DNA of 11,157 nucleotides from an uncultured bacterium (GTDB taxonomy: Bacteria > Schekmanbacteria > GWA2-38-11 > J061), in assembly GCA_964549305.1 (NCBI GenBank), contig CAZJVM010000077.1:1-11157 (forward strand). The letters run 5' to 3'. Within the stretch, counting starts at the first letter, position 1. Each line of letters opens with the position of its first letter. Positions 1-11,157 of this stretch are shown piece by piece. Made by a program: the position numbers.

Positions 1-3000
1 CAAAAAGTGGTTGAGTAACCGCCAATCTGCTGAGTAAGAACAGGATTATCCTCTACACTCCTGATAAACAATTCTTTAGAAAGATCTCTCCGTTTATTTT
101 TTTGTTTCCTTCGATAAAATTCTTCTGGACAGATGTGATAAAAAATATTTAAATCCAAAACACACATTCCTTTATCCGTAAAAAGCACAGTATCAACGTT
201 ATAATGCAGAACTGAGCCCGGAAAAGATTATTTTTAAAATGTGACATAAGTCATATTTTAATTTTTCTCTTTTGAATAACCATAGTATCGATGAGAGCAA
301 GCTTTTAATCTTGAGGGAGGGTATGGTATGTTGAGAAGACTGTTGATGTTCCTGTTCGTTTTATCCGCTTTTTTTATTATTTCTAATCCTTTAATTGTGT
401 CCTCGGAAGAATCTTCAACAAGTGCGAAATGCATAAATTGCCATGAAAAGGAGAGAATTGCGCGCGCAGCAATCGAGGAATGGAGCAAAAGCACCCACGC
501 GAAAAACGATGTGGGATGCTTTGACTGCCACGAAGCAAATCAGGAAGACCCCGATGCCCTATCCCATTACGGAAATTACATTTCTGTCATAGTAACGCCA
601 AAAGACTGCGGGCAGTGCCACGACAGGGAAGCAAATGAATTTCAGGGCAGTCATCACGCGAAAGCAGGCGCCATATTGGGTTCTCTTGATAATGTGCTCG
701 GTGAAATCGTAGAAGGCGTTGCCGCCGCGAACAGCGGTTGTAAGCAGTGCCACGGTTCGAAGGTCGCTCTTCTTCCAAACGGAAAGCTTGATCCTGCAAC
801 ATGGCCCAATACGGGAATCGGCAGAATCAATCTTGACGGAAGCAGGGGTGCCTGCTCTGCCTGTCACTCAAGGCACAGCTTTTCCGTTGAGACTGCACGC
901 CGTCCCGATAACTGCGGAAAATGTCATCTCGGTCCCGATCATCCACAGAAAGAAATTTACGACGAGTCAAAGCACGGAATAGCGTTTTACGCCAATGAAG
1001 ATAAGATGAATCTCAAGGCAAGGCCGTGGATACTCGGCAAGGACTATTCTGCCGCGCCTACCTGTGCCACCTGTCATATGAGTGCTACTCCGGAACTGCC
1101 TGTGACCCACGATGTGGGTTCAAGGATAAGCTGGACATTAAGGCCTGTCGTCTCGAAGAAGCTTGAAAACTGGGAGGAGAAAAGGACAACTATGAAGGGA
1201 GTCTGCACTGAGTGCCATTCGCCTTCATATGTTGACGGTTTTTATAAACAGTTTGATGAAGTCGTGAACCTTTACAATAATAAATTCGCAATACCTGCAA
1301 AGAATATAATGGCAAAACTTAAAGCAGAAAAGAAACTGACGCCCACTCCCTTTGATGATGAGATTGAGTGGACATTCTTCTTTTTGTGGCATCACGAAGG
1401 AAGGCGCGCGAGACACGGCGCGGCAATGATGGGTCCTGATTATACACAGTGGCACGGATTCTTCGAGGTTGCGGAAAGATTTTATGTTGAATTCCTTCCT
1501 CAGGCAGAGGAGCTTTTGCCCGGAGTTACAAAGGAAGTAGATGATATGGACCTTCATAAGTGGAGGAAAGGACTCTCGAAAGAGGAGAGAGACAAGATTA
1601 AGGGTTTTTATCAGAAAAGATACGGGCAGTAAAACTTTAAAGCAGATATGCGCAGACATTAAGCAGGGAGTCTTCGGAGAATTATTACATCAAAAATATA
1701 AAACAGGATGTATGAAAATTCGTGCCTGATTACAAAGTAGAAATACCTGATTACGGCTACTGGAAAAAGCAGATTAAATGTCAGGAAGCATGTCCCGTGC
1801 ATACCGATTCAGGCGGTTATGTGAGGGCAATCGCGGAAGGCAATTATGAACTGGCATATCTCATAGCAAGAGGTCCAAACCCCCTTGCTTCAATTTGCGG
1901 CAGAGTTTGCGGGGCGCCCTGCGAGGCATCGTGCAGGCGCGGTTCAGTTGATGAAGCAGTTTCCATAAGGGCGCTTAAGAGGTTCGTAATTGAAAGTCTT
2001 GCCCTTGAAGGGGATGAAAACCTCGCCGAGAAATTCTTCCACCGTCTTAAAAATTTCATATCACCGCAAAAATGCAGCGCCGGCGAAGAGCTTGCCGCTC
2101 TCAAAGATTTTCTCAACAGTGCCGGCATAAAGAAACCTCAAGGCGAAAAGATTGCCATTATAGGAAGTGGACCTGCGGGACTTGCCGCGGCGCACGACCT
2201 TTGCCTTCTCGGTCTTCGCCCCGTTATTTTTGAAATGGAACCTGTCCCCGCGGGAATGCTCTATCTCGGCGTGCCTGAATACAGACTTCCGAGGGAGATA
2301 ATCGAAGCGGAAGTGGAAGTAATCAAGTCACTCGGCACGGAGATAAAATGTAACATTCAGGTGGGCAAGGACATAACTCTTGAAGAAATCCGCAAGGAGT
2401 ACAAGGCGACTCTTATTGCGGTAGGGGCAAAAAAATCGGCAAAGATTCCCATCCCCGGTGTTGACGCAAAGGGGGTTATCGGAGGTGTTGAACTTCTGAG
2501 GTCAGTGGCGTTGGGCGAAGAGGTAAAGCTCGGAGAAAAGGTCATCGTAATAGGCGGCGGAAATGTTGCCTATGATGTGGCGCGTACCGTTGTAAGGCAG
2601 GCGGAATACGATGTGTCGAGAACGGCATTGAGGCAGGAGTCGGTTAAGGAAGTGAAACTTTACTGTCTTGAATCCCTCGAAGAGATGCCTGCCGATGACG
2701 TTGAAATTAACGAAGGTGATGAGGAAGGAGTGAGCAGGCATAACAGTTGGGGACCGGTGGAAATAATCCTCGATAACGGAAGAGCAAGAGGTGTGAAATT
2801 CAAGAAATGTCTTTCCGTATATGACGAGAACAAGAGATTTTCACCTGTTTTTGATGAAGCAAATATAATGGACAGCGATGCCGATACGGTAATTCTCTCC
2901 ATAGGACAGGTTGCAGACCTTTCATTCATCGATTCTGACAGGGACAAAATCAAACTCACCGAAAGAGGTCAGATTGTAGTAAATCCTGAAACGTTGCAGT

Positions 3001-9000: not shown

Positions 9001-11157
9001 CATTGAAATGAGCGATATGATAACCTTCTGGGGGCATAACCCCCGCGAATCTCACCCAATAGTTTTCTGGCGCGCCGCAGACCATAAGAAAAAGAACGGA
9101 ATACCCACATTGGTTTCCGACCCGAGGCGCACCGGAACCGTTCAGGCGCTTGAATCGGTTAATCCCAGAAACAGCCATCACTTCGCTTCTATAAACGGAG
9201 ATATATCCTGCCTGAATGCCATTGCTCACTGCCTTGTAACAGAGCATGAGCAGGTAATCGATTATAAGTTTTTAAAGGAAAATGTAACAGGGTGGCAGGA
9301 GTATATTGCTACGGTTAAAAAAGATTATGCCCCAGAAAAAGTTAAAGACAGGACAATGGTTGAGCCGGCGCTTATAAGAAAAATTGCTTCCGAATGGGCT
9401 GCCGCAACAATGAAGGGCAGAAGGCGCGGGACGGGTGGTGTCATTTCATTCTGGGGTATCGGCTATAACCAGCACATCCACGGTCAGCATAATGTAATCA
9501 GCATCATCAACCTCCACGCCCTGACAGGAAATATCGGCAGACCGGGCGCAGGCCCTTTTTCAATGACAGGACAGCCCAATGCAATGGGTGAACGGTTGAT
9601 GGGGGGATTGACAGGCAGACTTCCTTTTAATGAAGCGCTTGCAAATCAAAAACACCGCGAATGGATGAATGAAAGCTGGAATCTTCCAAAAGGACGGCTT
9701 GATAAGACAGCGGGAGAAAAAAATCCCGGAATGATGATTGGACTTTTCGAGAGGGCGATGAAGGGGGATGTGAAAATGATGTTTTATATGTACACAACCC
9801 ATGTACATCAGCCCGACCTCAATACGCTTATAAGACCCGCGCTGAAGAAGCTTTTTGTTGTTACTCAGGATATTTACAGGCACGCCCCGAATCTTCTTTA
9901 TTCAGATGTTGTTTTCCCCGCGATGACCTGGGGAGAATGGCAGGGCGGAACATATATAAGCTCAGAGAGAAGATTTGATATTTGTGACGGAGTGGGCAAA
10001 ACCGCTGACGGTATTGAAGGATGCCTTCCTGATCTTGATATGGCGATTGACAAGGGTAAAAACATTGCAAAACTTCTCGGTCTGGACGGCGAGAAAATCT
10101 TTCCATACAAGAAAAGGAAATTTCATCCCACGGGAACAGAACTTTATGACGCAGAGGAAGTTTTTGAAGAAATCGTCAAGGCATCAAAGGGAACAGACTG
10201 CGACCTGACAGGTATGCTTGAAGTGAGGAAAAAGGACGGAACGGGTTTATATGACCAGATCAGGATGCACCGCGGTATTCAGTGGCCTGCTCCAAATTAT
10301 GAAATTGCGAAGGCAGGCGGGACAAAGAGACGCTATATGGGGCAGGAAGAAGGCTGGACAAAGAAACCCTATGGCGCGTTCAGGCACAGCGACGGGAAAC
10401 TTCATATAAAGACGTGCAAGCAGGATTATTCCCGGAGAAAAGCAATGTCAAAGGAGCTTAATAAATTCGGCACGCAAAAAGGTTTTTACACCATTGACCA
10501 TATGGACATCCTCAAGAAGGCGCGCGATATGGCGCTTACTCCTGAATTGCCTGATTTTGAATACAAGGGAAGAAAATGGGATAAGGTTCCAAAGAATAAG
10601 TATCCCTTCTGGCTTGGGCTTGGGATTGTTTATGAACATTTCCATACGGCAAAGACAATTCGCGGAGCAACAACAAGACGTCTTGTTCCTGAACAGTATG
10701 TTGAGATGCATCCTGAAGATGCAAAGGAAAACGGTCTTCATGACGGAGATAAGATACGCGTTACTACAAGAAGAGGGTCTTATGAAGGAAGGGTGAGTGT
10801 GGGTGGAATCAGAAGCAAGGTAAAACCTGCAAGAACCGAAGTGCCGAAAGGTTACATCTTCTCACCGTGGAATCTTTCAGTTGCAGACTCGGCAGACCCT
10901 AAAAAGAATAAATGGCTTGTTAACGCAGTTTCCCACAGGGCTTATGATCCTGTTTCAGGGCAGGCGGATTTTAAAAAGCTTGCGGCAAGAATAGAAAAGA
11001 TTTGATAAGCATATATGCGGTTGTTTAATTAGAGTGTGTTTTTTGAAGATAAATTTCAGGGCAAGCCTTTTATAAGGATGCCCTGATTTTTTTAGGTGAT
11101 GAATAAGGTAATTCTCCTTTACGGATATAGTGAGGCAATGCTTATTGTGCTAAAATG

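What a model noticed while it worked through the whole genome (the two positions that open the first line are those of the whole stretch)
328..11005. Rieske/cytochrome b operon with an NfnB-like NAD(P) oxidoreductase, an HAO-family octahaem cytochrome and a NapA-like re [...]
Six adjacent same-strand genes encode an HAO-family octahaem cytochrome, a cytoplasmic NfnB/GltD-like flavoprotein, a Rieske protein, a cytochrome b, an anchored decahaem cytochrome and a Tat-exported NapA-like reductase. This is the parts list of the NAD(P)-linked Rieske/cyt b complexes described for anammox bacteria, here in a genome without a hydrazine synthase match. The oxidoreductase-Rieske-cyt b module recurs in several other phyla, so this kind of complex is not peculiar to anammox bacteria.
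Evidence so far: - Domains, signals and haem counts come from calls 63 and 90. - The best PDB hits of the Rieske protein are Kuenenia Kuste4569 (9rk4, 1.4e-17) and Kustd1480 (9rk3, 1.3e-15), ahead of b6f. The control Rieske of C88 prefers b6f. The Rieske of the C55 cluster hits Kustd1480 at 3.1e-45. - The best PDB hit of the flavoprotein is 9bov/9bp5 (8.8e-89, call 82). PMC12954380 gives the same entry as the closest relative of Kuste4570. - The octahaem protein hits 4qo5 (1.7e-45) and HAO. The reductase hits NapA 2nya (5.3e-77, call 89). - Synteny holds in G002, and in diverged form in G003. - Of 10 loci from other species, 8 have DNA downstream. All 8 have Rieske next, 7 have cyt b and 4 have the multihaem [...]
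(Added by a program. Inside this text positions count along the whole contig: contig position 1 is position 1 of the stretch shown here. "Call 12" and the like, gene names such as g00115 and contig names such as C1 are that model's own, and its searches are not shown. The text may have been shortened before it was handed on; [...] marks where a part breaks off. The agent that wrote the report below was given it as the finding of a first reader that could run no searches.)

Follow-up and report, generated by a model that had tools for sequence, protein, structure and literature searches.

The report
Flavoprotein-capped Rieske/cytochrome b nitrate-reductase operon
This operon encodes a membrane quinol-oxidising complex with a cytoplasmic iron-sulfur flavoprotein on one side and nitrate- and nitrite-type reductases on the other, and its core belongs to a large family found in many bacterial phyla that looks like, but is not the same as, the unusual complexes of anammox bacteria.

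Summary
The six + strand genes are real and encode what the finding says; its PDB E-values reproduce. The genome (100% complete) has no HZS_alpha match and no HDH over cut-off.

The core, flavoprotein-Rieske-cyt b-multihaem, is a large conserved family. In the 80 loci kept, from at least 14 named phyla, Rieske follows in 72 of 73, cyt b in 65 of 65 and a multihaem in 58 of 60 loci with enough downstream DNA. The NapA-like gene follows in 19 of 80, with NapG/NapH-like genes behind it. The octahaem gene lies beside the module only in this lineage.

It is not the anammox complex outside anammox. In five anammox genomes the best flavoprotein match is 37-41% identical. An AU test rejects a common flavoprotein clade (p 0.0012). 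The nucleotide-site motif, gene order and cyt b fusion differ, and the haem cN cysteine is missing. The cyt b tree is indecisive (p 0.30).

Most likely function: quinol bifurcation to nitrate/nitrite and to NAD+. The direction is unproven. Verdict: new variant of a known kind, interest 0.7.

The parts
240..255 (.). Imperfect palindrome with a TGAC-N4-GTCA core, 73 nt upstream of gene 1. Candidate operator for a CRP/FNR-type regulator (inference).
   Evidence: It is the only match to the pattern in the window on either strand. G002 has a TGAC-N4-GTCA palindrome upstream of its octahaem gene. No binding protein was tested.
328..1632 (+). Exported octahaem cytochrome c of the HAO family, short form (434 aa). 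Likely a nitrite/hydroxylamine reductase.
   Evidence: It has 8 CxxCH motifs and an N-terminal hydrophobic segment. Scores: PF13447 95 bits; 4qo5 1.7e-45 and HAO 1.6e-23; HDH model 84 bits against cut-off 900. All 8000 candidates scored reached E<=1e-20; the best 120 listed are 58-100% identical and about 390-470 aa.
1722..3602 (+). Cytoplasmic iron-sulfur flavoprotein (626 aa). It has an N-terminal 2-cluster domain, FAD and NAD(P) Rossmann folds, and a C-terminal 2x[4Fe-4S] ferredoxin domain.
   Evidence: Domains from Pfam and NCBIfam. PDB: 9bov 8.8e-89. No signal peptide or TM segment. It belongs to a clade with 99 SH-aLRT support. The cluster cysteines are invariant.
3625..4080 (+). Rieske [2Fe-2S] subunit with an RR motif and a membrane anchor.
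   Evidence: PF00355 48.6 bits. PDB: 9rk4 1.4e-17. The CTHLGC and CPCHGS boxes are visible in the translation.
4101..5654 (+). Cytochrome b: a b6-type four-helix part fused to a subunit-IV-like part with five hydrophobic segments.
   Evidence: Pfam and NCBIfam ExtP/ExtQ-like. PDB: b6 2.9e-36. The four haem histidines H121, H135, H234 and H249, plus H52, are invariant or nearly so. The Qo motif P-W-Y is invariant. The column of the haem cN cysteine holds Gly.
5742..8288 (+). Membrane-anchored decahaem cytochrome c: four c7-like haems followed by six class-I cytochrome c domains.
   Evidence: 10 CxxCH motifs and an N-terminal hydrophobic segment. Pfam domains. Among the 20 rows with a Mo gene (19 loci plus G002), the multihaem is a decahaem in 17.
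8336..11005 (+). Tat-exported Mo/W-bisPGD enzyme of the Nap/Nas/Fdh group, NapA-like. Likely a periplasmic nitrate reductase.
   Evidence: Tat signal TIGR01409 20.9 bits over cut-off 16.7. NapA model 336 bits against cut-off 904. PDB: 2nya 5.3e-77. The Cys-Met at the Mo-ligand position aligns with that of E. coli NapA. NapG/NapH-like genes follow it in G002 and in 4 of 4 other loci scanned.
11056..11093 (+). Hairpin followed by seven U: terminator-like element after the last gene.
   Evidence: Folding of 11040-11110 gives -18.7 kcal/mol, z -2.5. The consensus scanner did not list it.

Best explanation
The operon encodes one membrane complex that links three redox pools.

Shown by sequence:
- A b6-type Rieske/cyt b core with a complete quinol-oxidation site.
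- A decahaem cytochrome c in place of cytochrome f or c1.
- Two exported terminal enzymes: a NapA-like Mo enzyme and a short HAO-family octahaem.
- A cytoplasmic FeS-flavoprotein.

Inferred from near-invariant gene order: the flavoprotein docks on the cytoplasmic face of cyt b.

Inferred mechanism: menaquinol is oxidised at the outer site and its two electrons part.
- One electron goes downhill: Rieske cluster, then the decahaem, then the NapA-like enzyme (nitrate to nitrite) or the octahaem (nitrite/hydroxylamine to ammonium or NO).
- The other electron goes through the two b haems, possibly through a further haem held by His52 at the dimer axis, then the FeS clusters, then FAD, and reduces NAD+. 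The YRR dyad seen in the NADP-type relatives is missing, so NAD+ is more likely than NADP+.

If complex I then reoxidises the NADH, the low-potential electron is recycled with extra proton pumping. This would conserve more of the large menaquinol-to-nitrate span than an ordinary Q cycle. That last step is my speculation.
For: - One operon: short gaps and no internal + strand terminator-like site in any gap. G002 has the same order.
- Flavoprotein partnership: Rieske follows the flavoprotein in 72 of 73 loci, cyt b in 65 of 65 and a multihaem in 58 of 60, across at least 14 named phyla.
- Quinol site and b haems: the four haem histidines, spaced 14 and 15 residues apart, and the P-W-Y motif are invariant or nearly so.
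- His52 aligns with His43 and His62 of the two anammox cyt b. Those are the ligands of the extra haem b proposed in PMC12954380 (section 3.3 read; alignment). His52 is invariant in 28 of 28 family rows.
- The haem cN cysteine column is Gly. This fits an altered inner face.
- Nitrate link: Tat signal, 4Fe-4S motif and Cys-Met at the Mo ligand as in NapA; NapG/NapH-like genes next to it.
- The multihaem is a decahaem in 17 of 20 rows with the Mo gene. It is a hexa- or heptahaem in 32 of 46 rows without it.
- No NrfA over cut-off in G000, so gene 1 is the only candidate ammonifying haem enzyme found.
- Energetics, with figures from PMC12954380 (Introduction read): menaquinone about -70 mV, NAD(P) -320 mV, nitrite/NO +380 mV.
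- G000 has two NuoD loci. These could reoxidise NADH, and they make a non-pumping NADH:quinone route less needed.
Against: - Nothing here shows the direction of electron flow or the physical complex.
- 30 of the 80 loci come from Acidobacteriota, mostly Terriglobia. By my recollection these are mainly aerobic heterotrophs with ample NADH, so a need for quinol-driven NAD+ reduction is not obvious there.
- CLES in place of YRR may point to NADH, the usual catabolic donor.
- His52 is also present in the flavoprotein-less C55-type cyt b, so it is not specific to flavoprotein-linked complexes.
- The Rieske has the cluster-side Ser but Phe in place of the Tyr. The paper links that Tyr to high potential.
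- The NapA-like protein is far below the curated NapA cut-off, and the Fdh-alpha model scores nearly as high (336 against 316 bits).
- Whether the octahaem has the cross-linking Tyr is unresolved.
- A terminator-like hairpin separates the Mo gene from the probable NapGH genes in G000.
Confidence: 0.42

Rival explanations
1. Same complex, opposite direction on the inner side. The flavoprotein is an NADH (or NADPH) dehydrogenase that feeds electrons through its FeS chain into the b haems and the inner quinone site. The whole then works as an NAD(P)H-to-nitrate/nitrite (or, in relatives, NAD(P)H-to-cytochrome c) respiratory supercomplex with an ordinary Q cycle.
For: - The family is common in lineages named as Terriglobia, Planctomycetia and Phycisphaerae. 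That these are heterotrophs is my recollection.
- The family lacks the YRR dyad found in the NADP-type solved relatives and in both anammox flavoproteins.
- The route is downhill throughout.
- PMC12954380 itself discusses this option, and rejects it for Kuenenia only on grounds of wasted energy (Discussion part 2 read).
Against: - G000 has complex I-type NuoD genes at two loci.
- The cysteine for haem cN, part of the inner quinone site in b6-type complexes, is missing.
- No advantage over a separate NADH dehydrogenase is apparent.
Confidence: 0.3
2. An ordinary Nap/HAO-type nitrate-ammonification cluster in which the Rieske/cyt b complex is only the quinol dehydrogenase, as proposed for Caldithrix abyssi. 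The flavoprotein would be a separate cytoplasmic enzyme that is merely co-transcribed.
For: - Caldithrix has Nap genes, Rieske, cyt b and an epsilon-Hao gene side by side without a flavoprotein (PMC5317091, passages read).
- In G022 a 64%-identical octahaem gene follows another Rieske-cyt b pair without a flavoprotein.
- The flavoprotein superfamily is huge (7938 of 8000 candidates at E<=1e-30).
Against: - The flavoprotein clade is tied to Rieske/cyt b in 72 of 73 and 65 of 65 loci across many phyla, with or without Nap genes.
- The clade sits on a long stem with 99 SH-aLRT support.
Confidence: 0.06
3. The Mo enzyme is not a nitrate reductase. It acts on another oxyanion or works as an oxidase that sends electrons into the complex. 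The multihaem-Rieske path would then run backwards, and the complex would use NAD(P)H and a high-potential donor together to reduce quinone (confurcation).
For: - The protein scores 336 bits against a NapA cut-off of 904. It scores 316 bits on Fdh-alpha and 265 bits on NasA.
- It forms its own conserved group: 1125-1246 bits between full-length members, against 263 bits to solved NapA.
Against: - Cys-Met at the Mo-ligand position, as in the aligned E. coli NapA. By my recollection FDH has Sec/Cys-His there.
- NapG- and NapH-like genes follow in 5 of 5 loci looked at.
- An HAO-family enzyme sits alongside.
Confidence: 0.12

Closest known systems
Kuenenia stuttgartiensis R/b-3 (kuste4569-4574), hypothesised NAD(P)H-generating Rieske/cyt b complex (PMC12954380)
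   Same: - The kinds of parts match: Rieske, b6-type cyt b, subunit-IV-like part with five helices, FeS-flavoprotein, multihaem c and HAO-family octahaem.
- The His proposed to bind an extra haem b is conserved.
- The flavoprotein has a similar C-terminal two-cluster domain.
   Different: - Gene order is Rieske first, and cyt b is split in two.
- The flavoprotein is only 37-41% identical, has YRR and no insert, and falls outside the family clade.
- The haem cN cysteine is present there and absent here.
- It has a hexahaem rather than a decahaem, and no Mo enzyme.
- Its octahaem is a long form (about 584 aa) that scores only 77 bits against the window's.
Kuenenia R/b-2 (kustd1480-1485)
   Same: Rieske, b6, flavoprotein, subunit-IV-like part and a large multihaem. 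The C-terminal ferredoxin domain of its flavoprotein aligns well with the window's.
   Different: - The flavoprotein gene lies between b6 and subunit IV.
- Its Rieske is much closer to the G000 C55 Rieske (157 bits) than to the window's (61 bits).
- Its cyt b groups with the C55 type in the free tree, at 87 SH-aLRT. This is not significant by AU (p 0.30).
Caldithrix abyssi Nap-Rieske/cyt b-epsilonHao cluster (PMC5317091)
   Same: NapA, NapG/H, Rieske, cyt b and an HAO-family octahaem sit side by side. They were read there as nitrate ammonification with the Rieske/cyt b complex as quinol oxidase.
   Different: It has no flavoprotein, and a tetrahaem NapM instead of an anchored decahaem (as described in the paper). 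I did not compare sequences.
Cytochrome b6f
   Same: Best solved relatives of the cyt b (2.9e-36). Spacing of the haem histidines follows the b6 pattern (that this is the b6 spacing is my recollection).
   Different: No haem cN cysteine. b6 and subunit IV are fused. There are five rather than three helices in the second part, a multihaem in place of cytochrome f, and a flavoprotein.
NfnABC (Bfu family) of Caldicellulosiruptor, 9bov/9bp5; StnC 8oh5; NfnA 9n5u
   Same: Best solved relatives of the flavoprotein, over residues 136-609. The paper used the same entry to place clusters in Kuste4570 (section 2.5 read).
   Different: They are soluble multidomain enzymes. They have YRR and lack the 13-residue insert.
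IhOCC of Ignicoccus hospitalis (4qo5) and epsilon-Hao enzymes
   Same: Best solved relative of gene 1 (1.7e-45). Eight haems.
   Different: The match covers only residues 61-263. The reported nitrite/hydroxylamine reductase activity of IhOCC is my recollection and comes from no call.
Geobacter ExtP/ExtQ b-type cytochromes (NCBIfam NF040969, NF040970)
   Same: Best curated families for the two halves of the cyt b (235 and 52 bits).
   Different: Both are under their cut-offs (290 and 150), and they are separate proteins there.

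Membership tests
Anammox NAD(P)-linked Rieske/cyt b complexes (kuste4569-4574, kustd1480-1485) | Rieske + b6-type cyt b + subunit-IV-like part with five helices | tested here: met
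   Domains. There are five hydrophobic segments after residue 300. The paper states five helices. Here the two parts are fused.
Anammox NAD(P)-linked Rieske/cyt b complexes (kuste4569-4574, kustd1480-1485) | FeS-flavoprotein gene inside the cluster | tested here: met
   Gene 2 lies directly upstream of the Rieske gene.
Anammox NAD(P)-linked Rieske/cyt b complexes (kuste4569-4574, kustd1480-1485) | Flavoprotein orthologous to Kuste4570/Kustd1483 | tested here: not met
   The best match in 5 of 5 anammox genomes is 37-41% identical. These flavoproteins fall outside the family clade in the 36-row tree. The AU test rejects a joint clade, p 0.0012. The group was named after the tree was seen and long branches are involved. 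The motif is YRR there and CLES plus an insert here.
Anammox NAD(P)-linked Rieske/cyt b complexes (kuste4569-4574, kustd1480-1485) | Cyt b orthologous to Kuste4571/Kustd1481 | tested here: inconclusive
   The free tree groups the anammox cyt b with the flavoprotein-less C55 type (87 SH-aLRT). The AU test does not reject a clade of all flavoprotein-linked cyt b (p 0.30).
Anammox NAD(P)-linked Rieske/cyt b complexes (kuste4569-4574, kustd1480-1485) | Covalent haem cN (cysteine before helix A) | tested here: not met
   Both anammox cyt b and the C88 b6 have Cys in this column. The window, G002, C55 and 8 of 8 family rows have Gly.
Anammox NAD(P)-linked Rieske/cyt b complexes (kuste4569-4574, kustd1480-1485) | Histidine proposed to ligate an extra haem b at the dimer axis (His43/His62) | tested here: met
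   His52 aligns with them and is invariant in 28 of 28 rows. It is also present in C55, which has no flavoprotein.
Anammox NAD(P)-linked Rieske/cyt b complexes (kuste4569-4574, kustd1480-1485) | High-potential Rieske (above +300 mV) and NAD(P)H production | not testable with these tools
   Only sequence hints are available: the Ser after CPCHG is present, and the Tyr two residues later is Phe (roles of these residues).
Periplasmic nitrate reductase NapA | Tat signal, N-terminal 4Fe-4S motif, Mo-ligand Cys followed by Met | tested here: met
   TIGR01409 scores over its cut-off and PF04879 scores 49.6 bits. The Cys-Met aligns with that of 2nya.
Periplasmic nitrate reductase NapA | Score over the curated NapA models | tested here: not met
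   PRK13532 scores 336 bits against 904. TIGR01706 scores 311 against 931. Fdh-alpha scores 316 against 666.
Periplasmic nitrate reductase NapA | Nap accessory or redox partner genes nearby | tested here: met
   NapG- and NapH-like genes (best hits, all under cut-off) follow the gene in G002 and in L024, L042, L062 and L077. In G000 they start contig C103. NapB, NapC and NapD were not searched for.
HAO-family octahaem cytochromes | Eight CxxCH motifs and significant similarity to family members | tested here: met
HAO-family octahaem cytochromes | Cross-linking tyrosine of the oxidising members | tested here: inconclusive
   The column of Tyr462 of the anammox HDH holds Trp in the window's protein and in its relatives. 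An invariant Tyr lies three residues before it. That Tyr462 is the cross-link residue is my recollection. The region aligns poorly.
Hydrazine dehydrogenase (NF052343) | Score over the equivalog cut-off | tested here: not met
   84 bits against 900.

The most novel reading that the evidence does not exclude
Flavoprotein-capped Rieske/cyt b complexes are not an anammox oddity. They are a widespread class with at least two origins: two flavoprotein subfamilies sitting on related cyt b scaffolds. In at least 14 phyla they split the electrons of menaquinol between a high-potential acceptor (nitrate, nitrite, or cytochrome c/oxygen) and NAD+. Together with complex I this would form an extended Q cycle that pumps several times more protons per electron pair than a normal one. 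It would be an overlooked way to harvest the large menaquinol-to-nitrate or menaquinol-to-oxygen span, and a route of reverse electron flow that does not run complex I backwards.
Probability: 0.25. Interest if true: 0.9.

Novelty: new variant of a known kind. Interest (0 to 1): 0.7.

Why it matters
The idea that a Rieske/cyt b complex can send its low-potential electron to NAD(P)+ instead of back to quinone has stood since the anammox genome work. It has not been shown biochemically. A 2025 paper still calls the function of the anammox complexes unclear (abstract), and another says experimental evidence for Kuste4574 activity is lacking (passages). Anammox bacteria are hard to grow.

This finding matters for three reasons.
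- A related architecture is common.
- It occurs in lineages whose names include genera with cultured members, such as Planctomyces, Paludibaculum and Chthonomonas (record titles). This could make the question testable in tractable organisms.
- It suggests that nitrate ammonification through Nap and HAO-type enzymes can be wired to the pyridine-nucleotide pool.

In the six full-text searches I ran I found no paper describing such a flavoprotein-linked complex outside anammox bacteria. Key subscription reviews could not be read: Kartal 2013, ten Brink 2013, de Almeida 2016 and Dibrova 2013. The last was tried by DOI and PMC id and is not held. They may already mention it.

Tried and rejected
- Complex prediction, two copies of cyt b residues 1-300 plus flavoprotein residues 455-626, both with alignments: no answer (score 0.01, mark 0.32). 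It is not used as evidence either way. The job was accepted after repeated queue-full replies.
- AlphaFold2 model of the octahaem protein from a 22-row alignment: mean pLDDT 62, pTM 0.48. This is too poor for a fold search, so none was run.
- The look-up of sequencing runs: no RNA holder listed. Three DNA-type rows hold 17-46% of the sampled words. No reads were laid.
- PF18582 as an anammox marker: it matched 86 of 401 genomes of the Planctomycetota sample and one control genome, so it is not specific. I used the HDH equivalog model instead.
- The genome search with the flavoprotein at E<=1e-100 missed the G003 copy. That copy scores 502 bits by phmmer once the locus was fetched through its cyt b.
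- First cyt b tree: the G002 row was cut wrongly by my script and came out as a very long branch. It was rebuilt.
- Fer4 protein upstream of the C55 Rieske compared with the flavoprotein tail: no similarity (E 2.4).
- Rejected: that gene 1 is hydrazine or hydroxylamine dehydrogenase of the anammox type (84 bits against 900).
- Rejected: that gene 6 is a formate dehydrogenase (Cys-Met rather than Cys/Sec-His, and NapGH-like neighbours).

Full report
OBSERVATION

The window is the whole contig C77 of genome G000 (2.94 Mb, 169 contigs, 100% complete, 0.44% contamination). Six + strand ORFs fill 328-11005. The gaps between them are 89, 22, 20, 87 and 47 nt. No + strand terminator-like site lies in any gap.

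My script counts 8 and 10 CxxCH motifs in genes 1 and 5. It finds hydrophobic N-termini in genes 1 and 5, RR motifs in genes 3 and 6, and neither in gene 2. G000 has no HZS_alpha match, and its only HDH-model match is gene 1 itself at 75-84 bits against a cut-off of 900.

WHAT THE CORE IS

The flavoprotein has very many full-length relatives at 57-61% identity. Of 8000 candidates scored, 7938 reached E<=1e-30; I saw the best 120.

I aligned 13 of them and scanned one genome per species. By the organism names in the record titles they come from:
- Acidobacteriota, 30 loci
- Planctomycetota, 27 loci
- 13 further named phyla, 1-2 loci each
- no phylum named, 6 loci

I called stop-to-stop ORFs and searched them with the six window proteins. 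Counting only loci with enough downstream DNA:

| Gene after the flavoprotein | Loci with it | Downstream DNA required |
|---|---|---|
| Rieske | 72 of 73 | at least 500 nt |
| cyt b | 65 of 65 | at least 2200 nt |
| multihaem | 58 of 60 | at least 4500 nt |

The Rieske miss is L078. The two multihaem misses are L010, where the gene is in pieces, and L079, where it lies upstream. This is a conserved four-gene module.

THE NAP SUBTYPE

The NapA-like gene follows the multihaem in 16 of 52 loci with at least 8500 nt downstream, and in 19 of 80 in all (12 of them Planctomycetota). Full-length members score 1125-1246 bits, so they form an orthologous group.

Multihaem size goes with it:
- With the Mo gene: a decahaem in 17 of 20 rows and an octahaem in 3.
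- Without it: a hexa- or heptahaem in 32 of 46 rows.

The Mo-ligand position reads Cys-Met and aligns with that of E. coli NapA 2nya. NapG- and NapH-like genes are the best NCBIfam hits for the next genes, all under cut-off. They follow the Mo gene in G002 and in 4 of 4 other loci scanned, out of the 19.

In G000 the same NapG/H-like set starts at base 5 of contig C103, at 50-71% identity to G002 and in the same order. C77 therefore probably abuts C103. This is an inference. A hairpin with seven U follows the Mo gene.

The protein is nevertheless far under the curated NapA cut-off, and the Fdh-alpha model scores almost as high. 'NapA-like' is as far as the evidence goes.

THE OCTAHAEM

Gene 1 belongs to a large group of proteins of about 390-470 aa at 58-75% identity. 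Sources name them hydroxylamine oxidoreductase or nitrite reductase (automatic names). Its best solved relative is 4qo5.

Only 1 of the 80 loci (L007) has such a gene, 8.7 kb downstream. So its place beside the module is peculiar to G000 and G002. Homologues do exist elsewhere in 4 of 5 module-bearing genomes searched:
- In G022 the homologue follows another Rieske-cyt b pair.
- In G021 it adjoins a Mo-enzyme gene.

This echoes the published Caldithrix abyssi cluster of Nap genes, Rieske, cyt b and epsilon-Hao, which was read as nitrate ammonification (PMC5317091, passages read). G000 has no NrfA over cut-off.

Whether the cross-linking tyrosine is present is unresolved. The column of the HDH Tyr462 holds Trp, and an invariant Tyr lies three residues earlier. 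The role of Tyr462 is my recollection.

COMPARISON WITH ANAMMOX

I found anammox genomes by the HDH equivalog model: 5 of 5 chosen handles scored over cut-off. I then fetched both clusters from G157.
- One cluster reads Rieske, flavoprotein, b6, subunit IV, hexahaem, HAO-like.
- The other reads Rieske, b6, flavoprotein, subunit IV, and a 956-aa octahaem.
- These are the two layouts described in PMC12954380 (Introduction read).
- The residue numbers His43 and His62 given there (section 3.3) fall on the first His of an L-H-L-H-P motif in the two G157 proteins.

Results against equivalence:
- (a) The best flavoprotein match in the five anammox genomes is 37-41% identical. The two G157 flavoproteins score 303 and 327 bits. 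Unlinked paralogues score no lower: 297 and 280 bits for G000 C8 and C4, and 327 bits for a third G157 protein.
- (b) I built a 36-row tree. It held 26 of the 80 loci, picked by hand for spread, plus the window, G002, 3 G157 rows and 5 G000 paralogues; 54 loci were left out. The 28 family rows form a clade (99 SH-aLRT) on a long stem. The two anammox rows lie outside it, beyond three unlinked paralogues.
- (c) An AU test rejects a clade of all 30 Rieske-linked flavoproteins (p 0.0012). Caveats: the group was named after the tree was seen, long branches are involved, and it is a quick tree.
- (d) A discrete character agrees. The anammox pair, three G000 paralogues and the solved relatives 9bov, 8oh5 and 9n5u read YRR before the EMPA motif. 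The family reads CLES after a 13-14 residue insert. That the YRR dyad binds the 2'-phosphate of NADPH is my recollection. If so, the family is more likely to use NAD(H).
- (e) The cysteine that carries haem cN is present in both anammox cyt b and in the C88 b6. It is Gly in the window, G002, C55 and 8 of 8 family rows.
- (f) The window's Rieske scores 61-67 bits against the two Kuenenia structures. The Rieske of the flavoprotein-less C55 cluster scores 157 bits against Kustd1480.

Results for a link:
- His52 aligns with His43/His62 and is invariant in 28 of 28 rows. It is also present in C55.
- The C-terminal two-cluster domains of the flavoproteins align well.
- The second half of the cyt b has five hydrophobic segments, as in the paper.
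- In a 21-row cyt b tree the family is a clade (100 SH-aLRT) and the anammox rows sit with the C55 type (87, not starred). The AU test does not reject a clade of all flavoprotein-linked cyt b (p 0.30).

My reading: the window belongs to a separate, much larger lineage of flavoprotein-capped Rieske/cyt b complexes. The flavoprotein subunits of the two lineages come from different subfamilies. Whether the scaffold is shared by descent is open.

LINEAGE

The list of relatives jumps from 'same order' (G003, G004) to 'same domain', so G000 sits in a small isolated group.
- G002 (same family) has the full six-gene operon.
- G003 has a diverged core: flavoprotein at 502 bits, Rieske, cyt b, a pentahaem, and a 934-aa decahaem. 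It has no Mo or HAO-type gene there.
- G001 (same genus, 97% complete) gave no flavoprotein match at E<=1e-100, and only a weak cyt b match broken by three stops.

The operon is therefore variably present among close relatives.

MECHANISM

Shown:
- the parts, their predicted sides of the membrane, and the conserved cofactor ligands
- the tight gene linkage

Inferred:
- that the proteins form one complex
- the direction of electron flow

I favour quinol bifurcation to nitrate/nitrite and NAD+ (0.42).
- The outer quinol site and the Rieske are intact.
- The inner face is altered: no haem cN, and a conserved His52.
- G000 already has complex I-type genes.
- The energy figures in PMC12954380 allow it.

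The rival with NAD(P)H as donor (0.30) gains from the abundance of the family in lineages I recall as heterotrophs, and from the loss of the YRR dyad.

I found no expression data. The complex prediction gave no answer.

LITERATURE

Six full-text searches were run.
- The listing for the kuste/kustd locus names showed 12 of the 15 matching papers, and all 12 titles are anammox-centred.
- PMC3578206 (passages read) reports a Rieske-cyt b-octahaem operon shared by Nitrospina, Kuenenia and Methylomirabilis. No flavoprotein is mentioned in the passages I saw.
- I found no description of a flavoprotein-linked complex outside anammox bacteria.
- Several key reviews are not held.

VERDICT

This is a new variant of a known kind. 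Interest 0.7.

Noticed in passing
window 240-255; L084 (G002) about 60-80 nt upstream of its octahaem gene: A TGAC-N4-GTCA palindrome lies upstream of the first gene in both G000 and G002. It may be a shared operator of a CRP/FNR-type regulator.
   Followed up: partly
window 11006-11157 and G000 contig C103 (L105) 5-2977: The window ends 152 nt after the Mo gene, in an ATG. Contig C103 starts with NapG-like, NapH-like, an unknown gene and a second NapH-like gene, in the same order as downstream of the Mo gene in G002. The two contigs are probably neighbours.
   Followed up: partly
G000 contig C55 (L103) 3848-9591, - strand: A second Rieske/cyt b cluster: a Fer4 protein (256-aa ORF), Rieske, fused cyt b (533 aa) and an 886-aa octahaem, with no flavoprotein. 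Its Rieske matches Kustd1480 at 4.2e-45, and its cyt b groups with the anammox ones in the free tree. The G002 orthologues of the Fer4 gene and of a nearby NIR_SIR gene lie directly upstream of the G002 operon.
   Followed up: partly
G000 contig C88 (L104) 1-9142, - strand: A third, split b6/subunit-IV type Rieske/cyt b cluster. It is surrounded by cytochromes with 8, 9, 11 and 14 CxxCH motifs.
   Followed up: no
L085 (G022:C144) 1336-4215: A 64%-identical homologue of the octahaem gene follows a different Rieske-cyt b pair (353-aa cyt b) in a genome that also carries the flavoprotein module on another contig.
   Followed up: no
L084 (G002) 14832-17276: Upstream of the G002 operon lie a NIR_SIR-type sirohaem enzyme with an inserted ferredoxin domain, a CBS-domain protein and a Fer4 protein, all on the same strand.
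   Followed up: no
L098 (G001:C137:10494-11408): The only cyt b match in the same-genus genome G001 is 38% identical and interrupted by three TAA stops. It may be a decayed gene.
   Followed up: no
search of 401 Planctomycetota-phylum genomes: Pfam HZS_alpha (PF18582) matched 86 of 401 genomes, often in proteins of 1000-1900 aa, and also matched Bacteroides thetaiotaomicron among the controls. It is not a specific anammox marker.
   Followed up: yes
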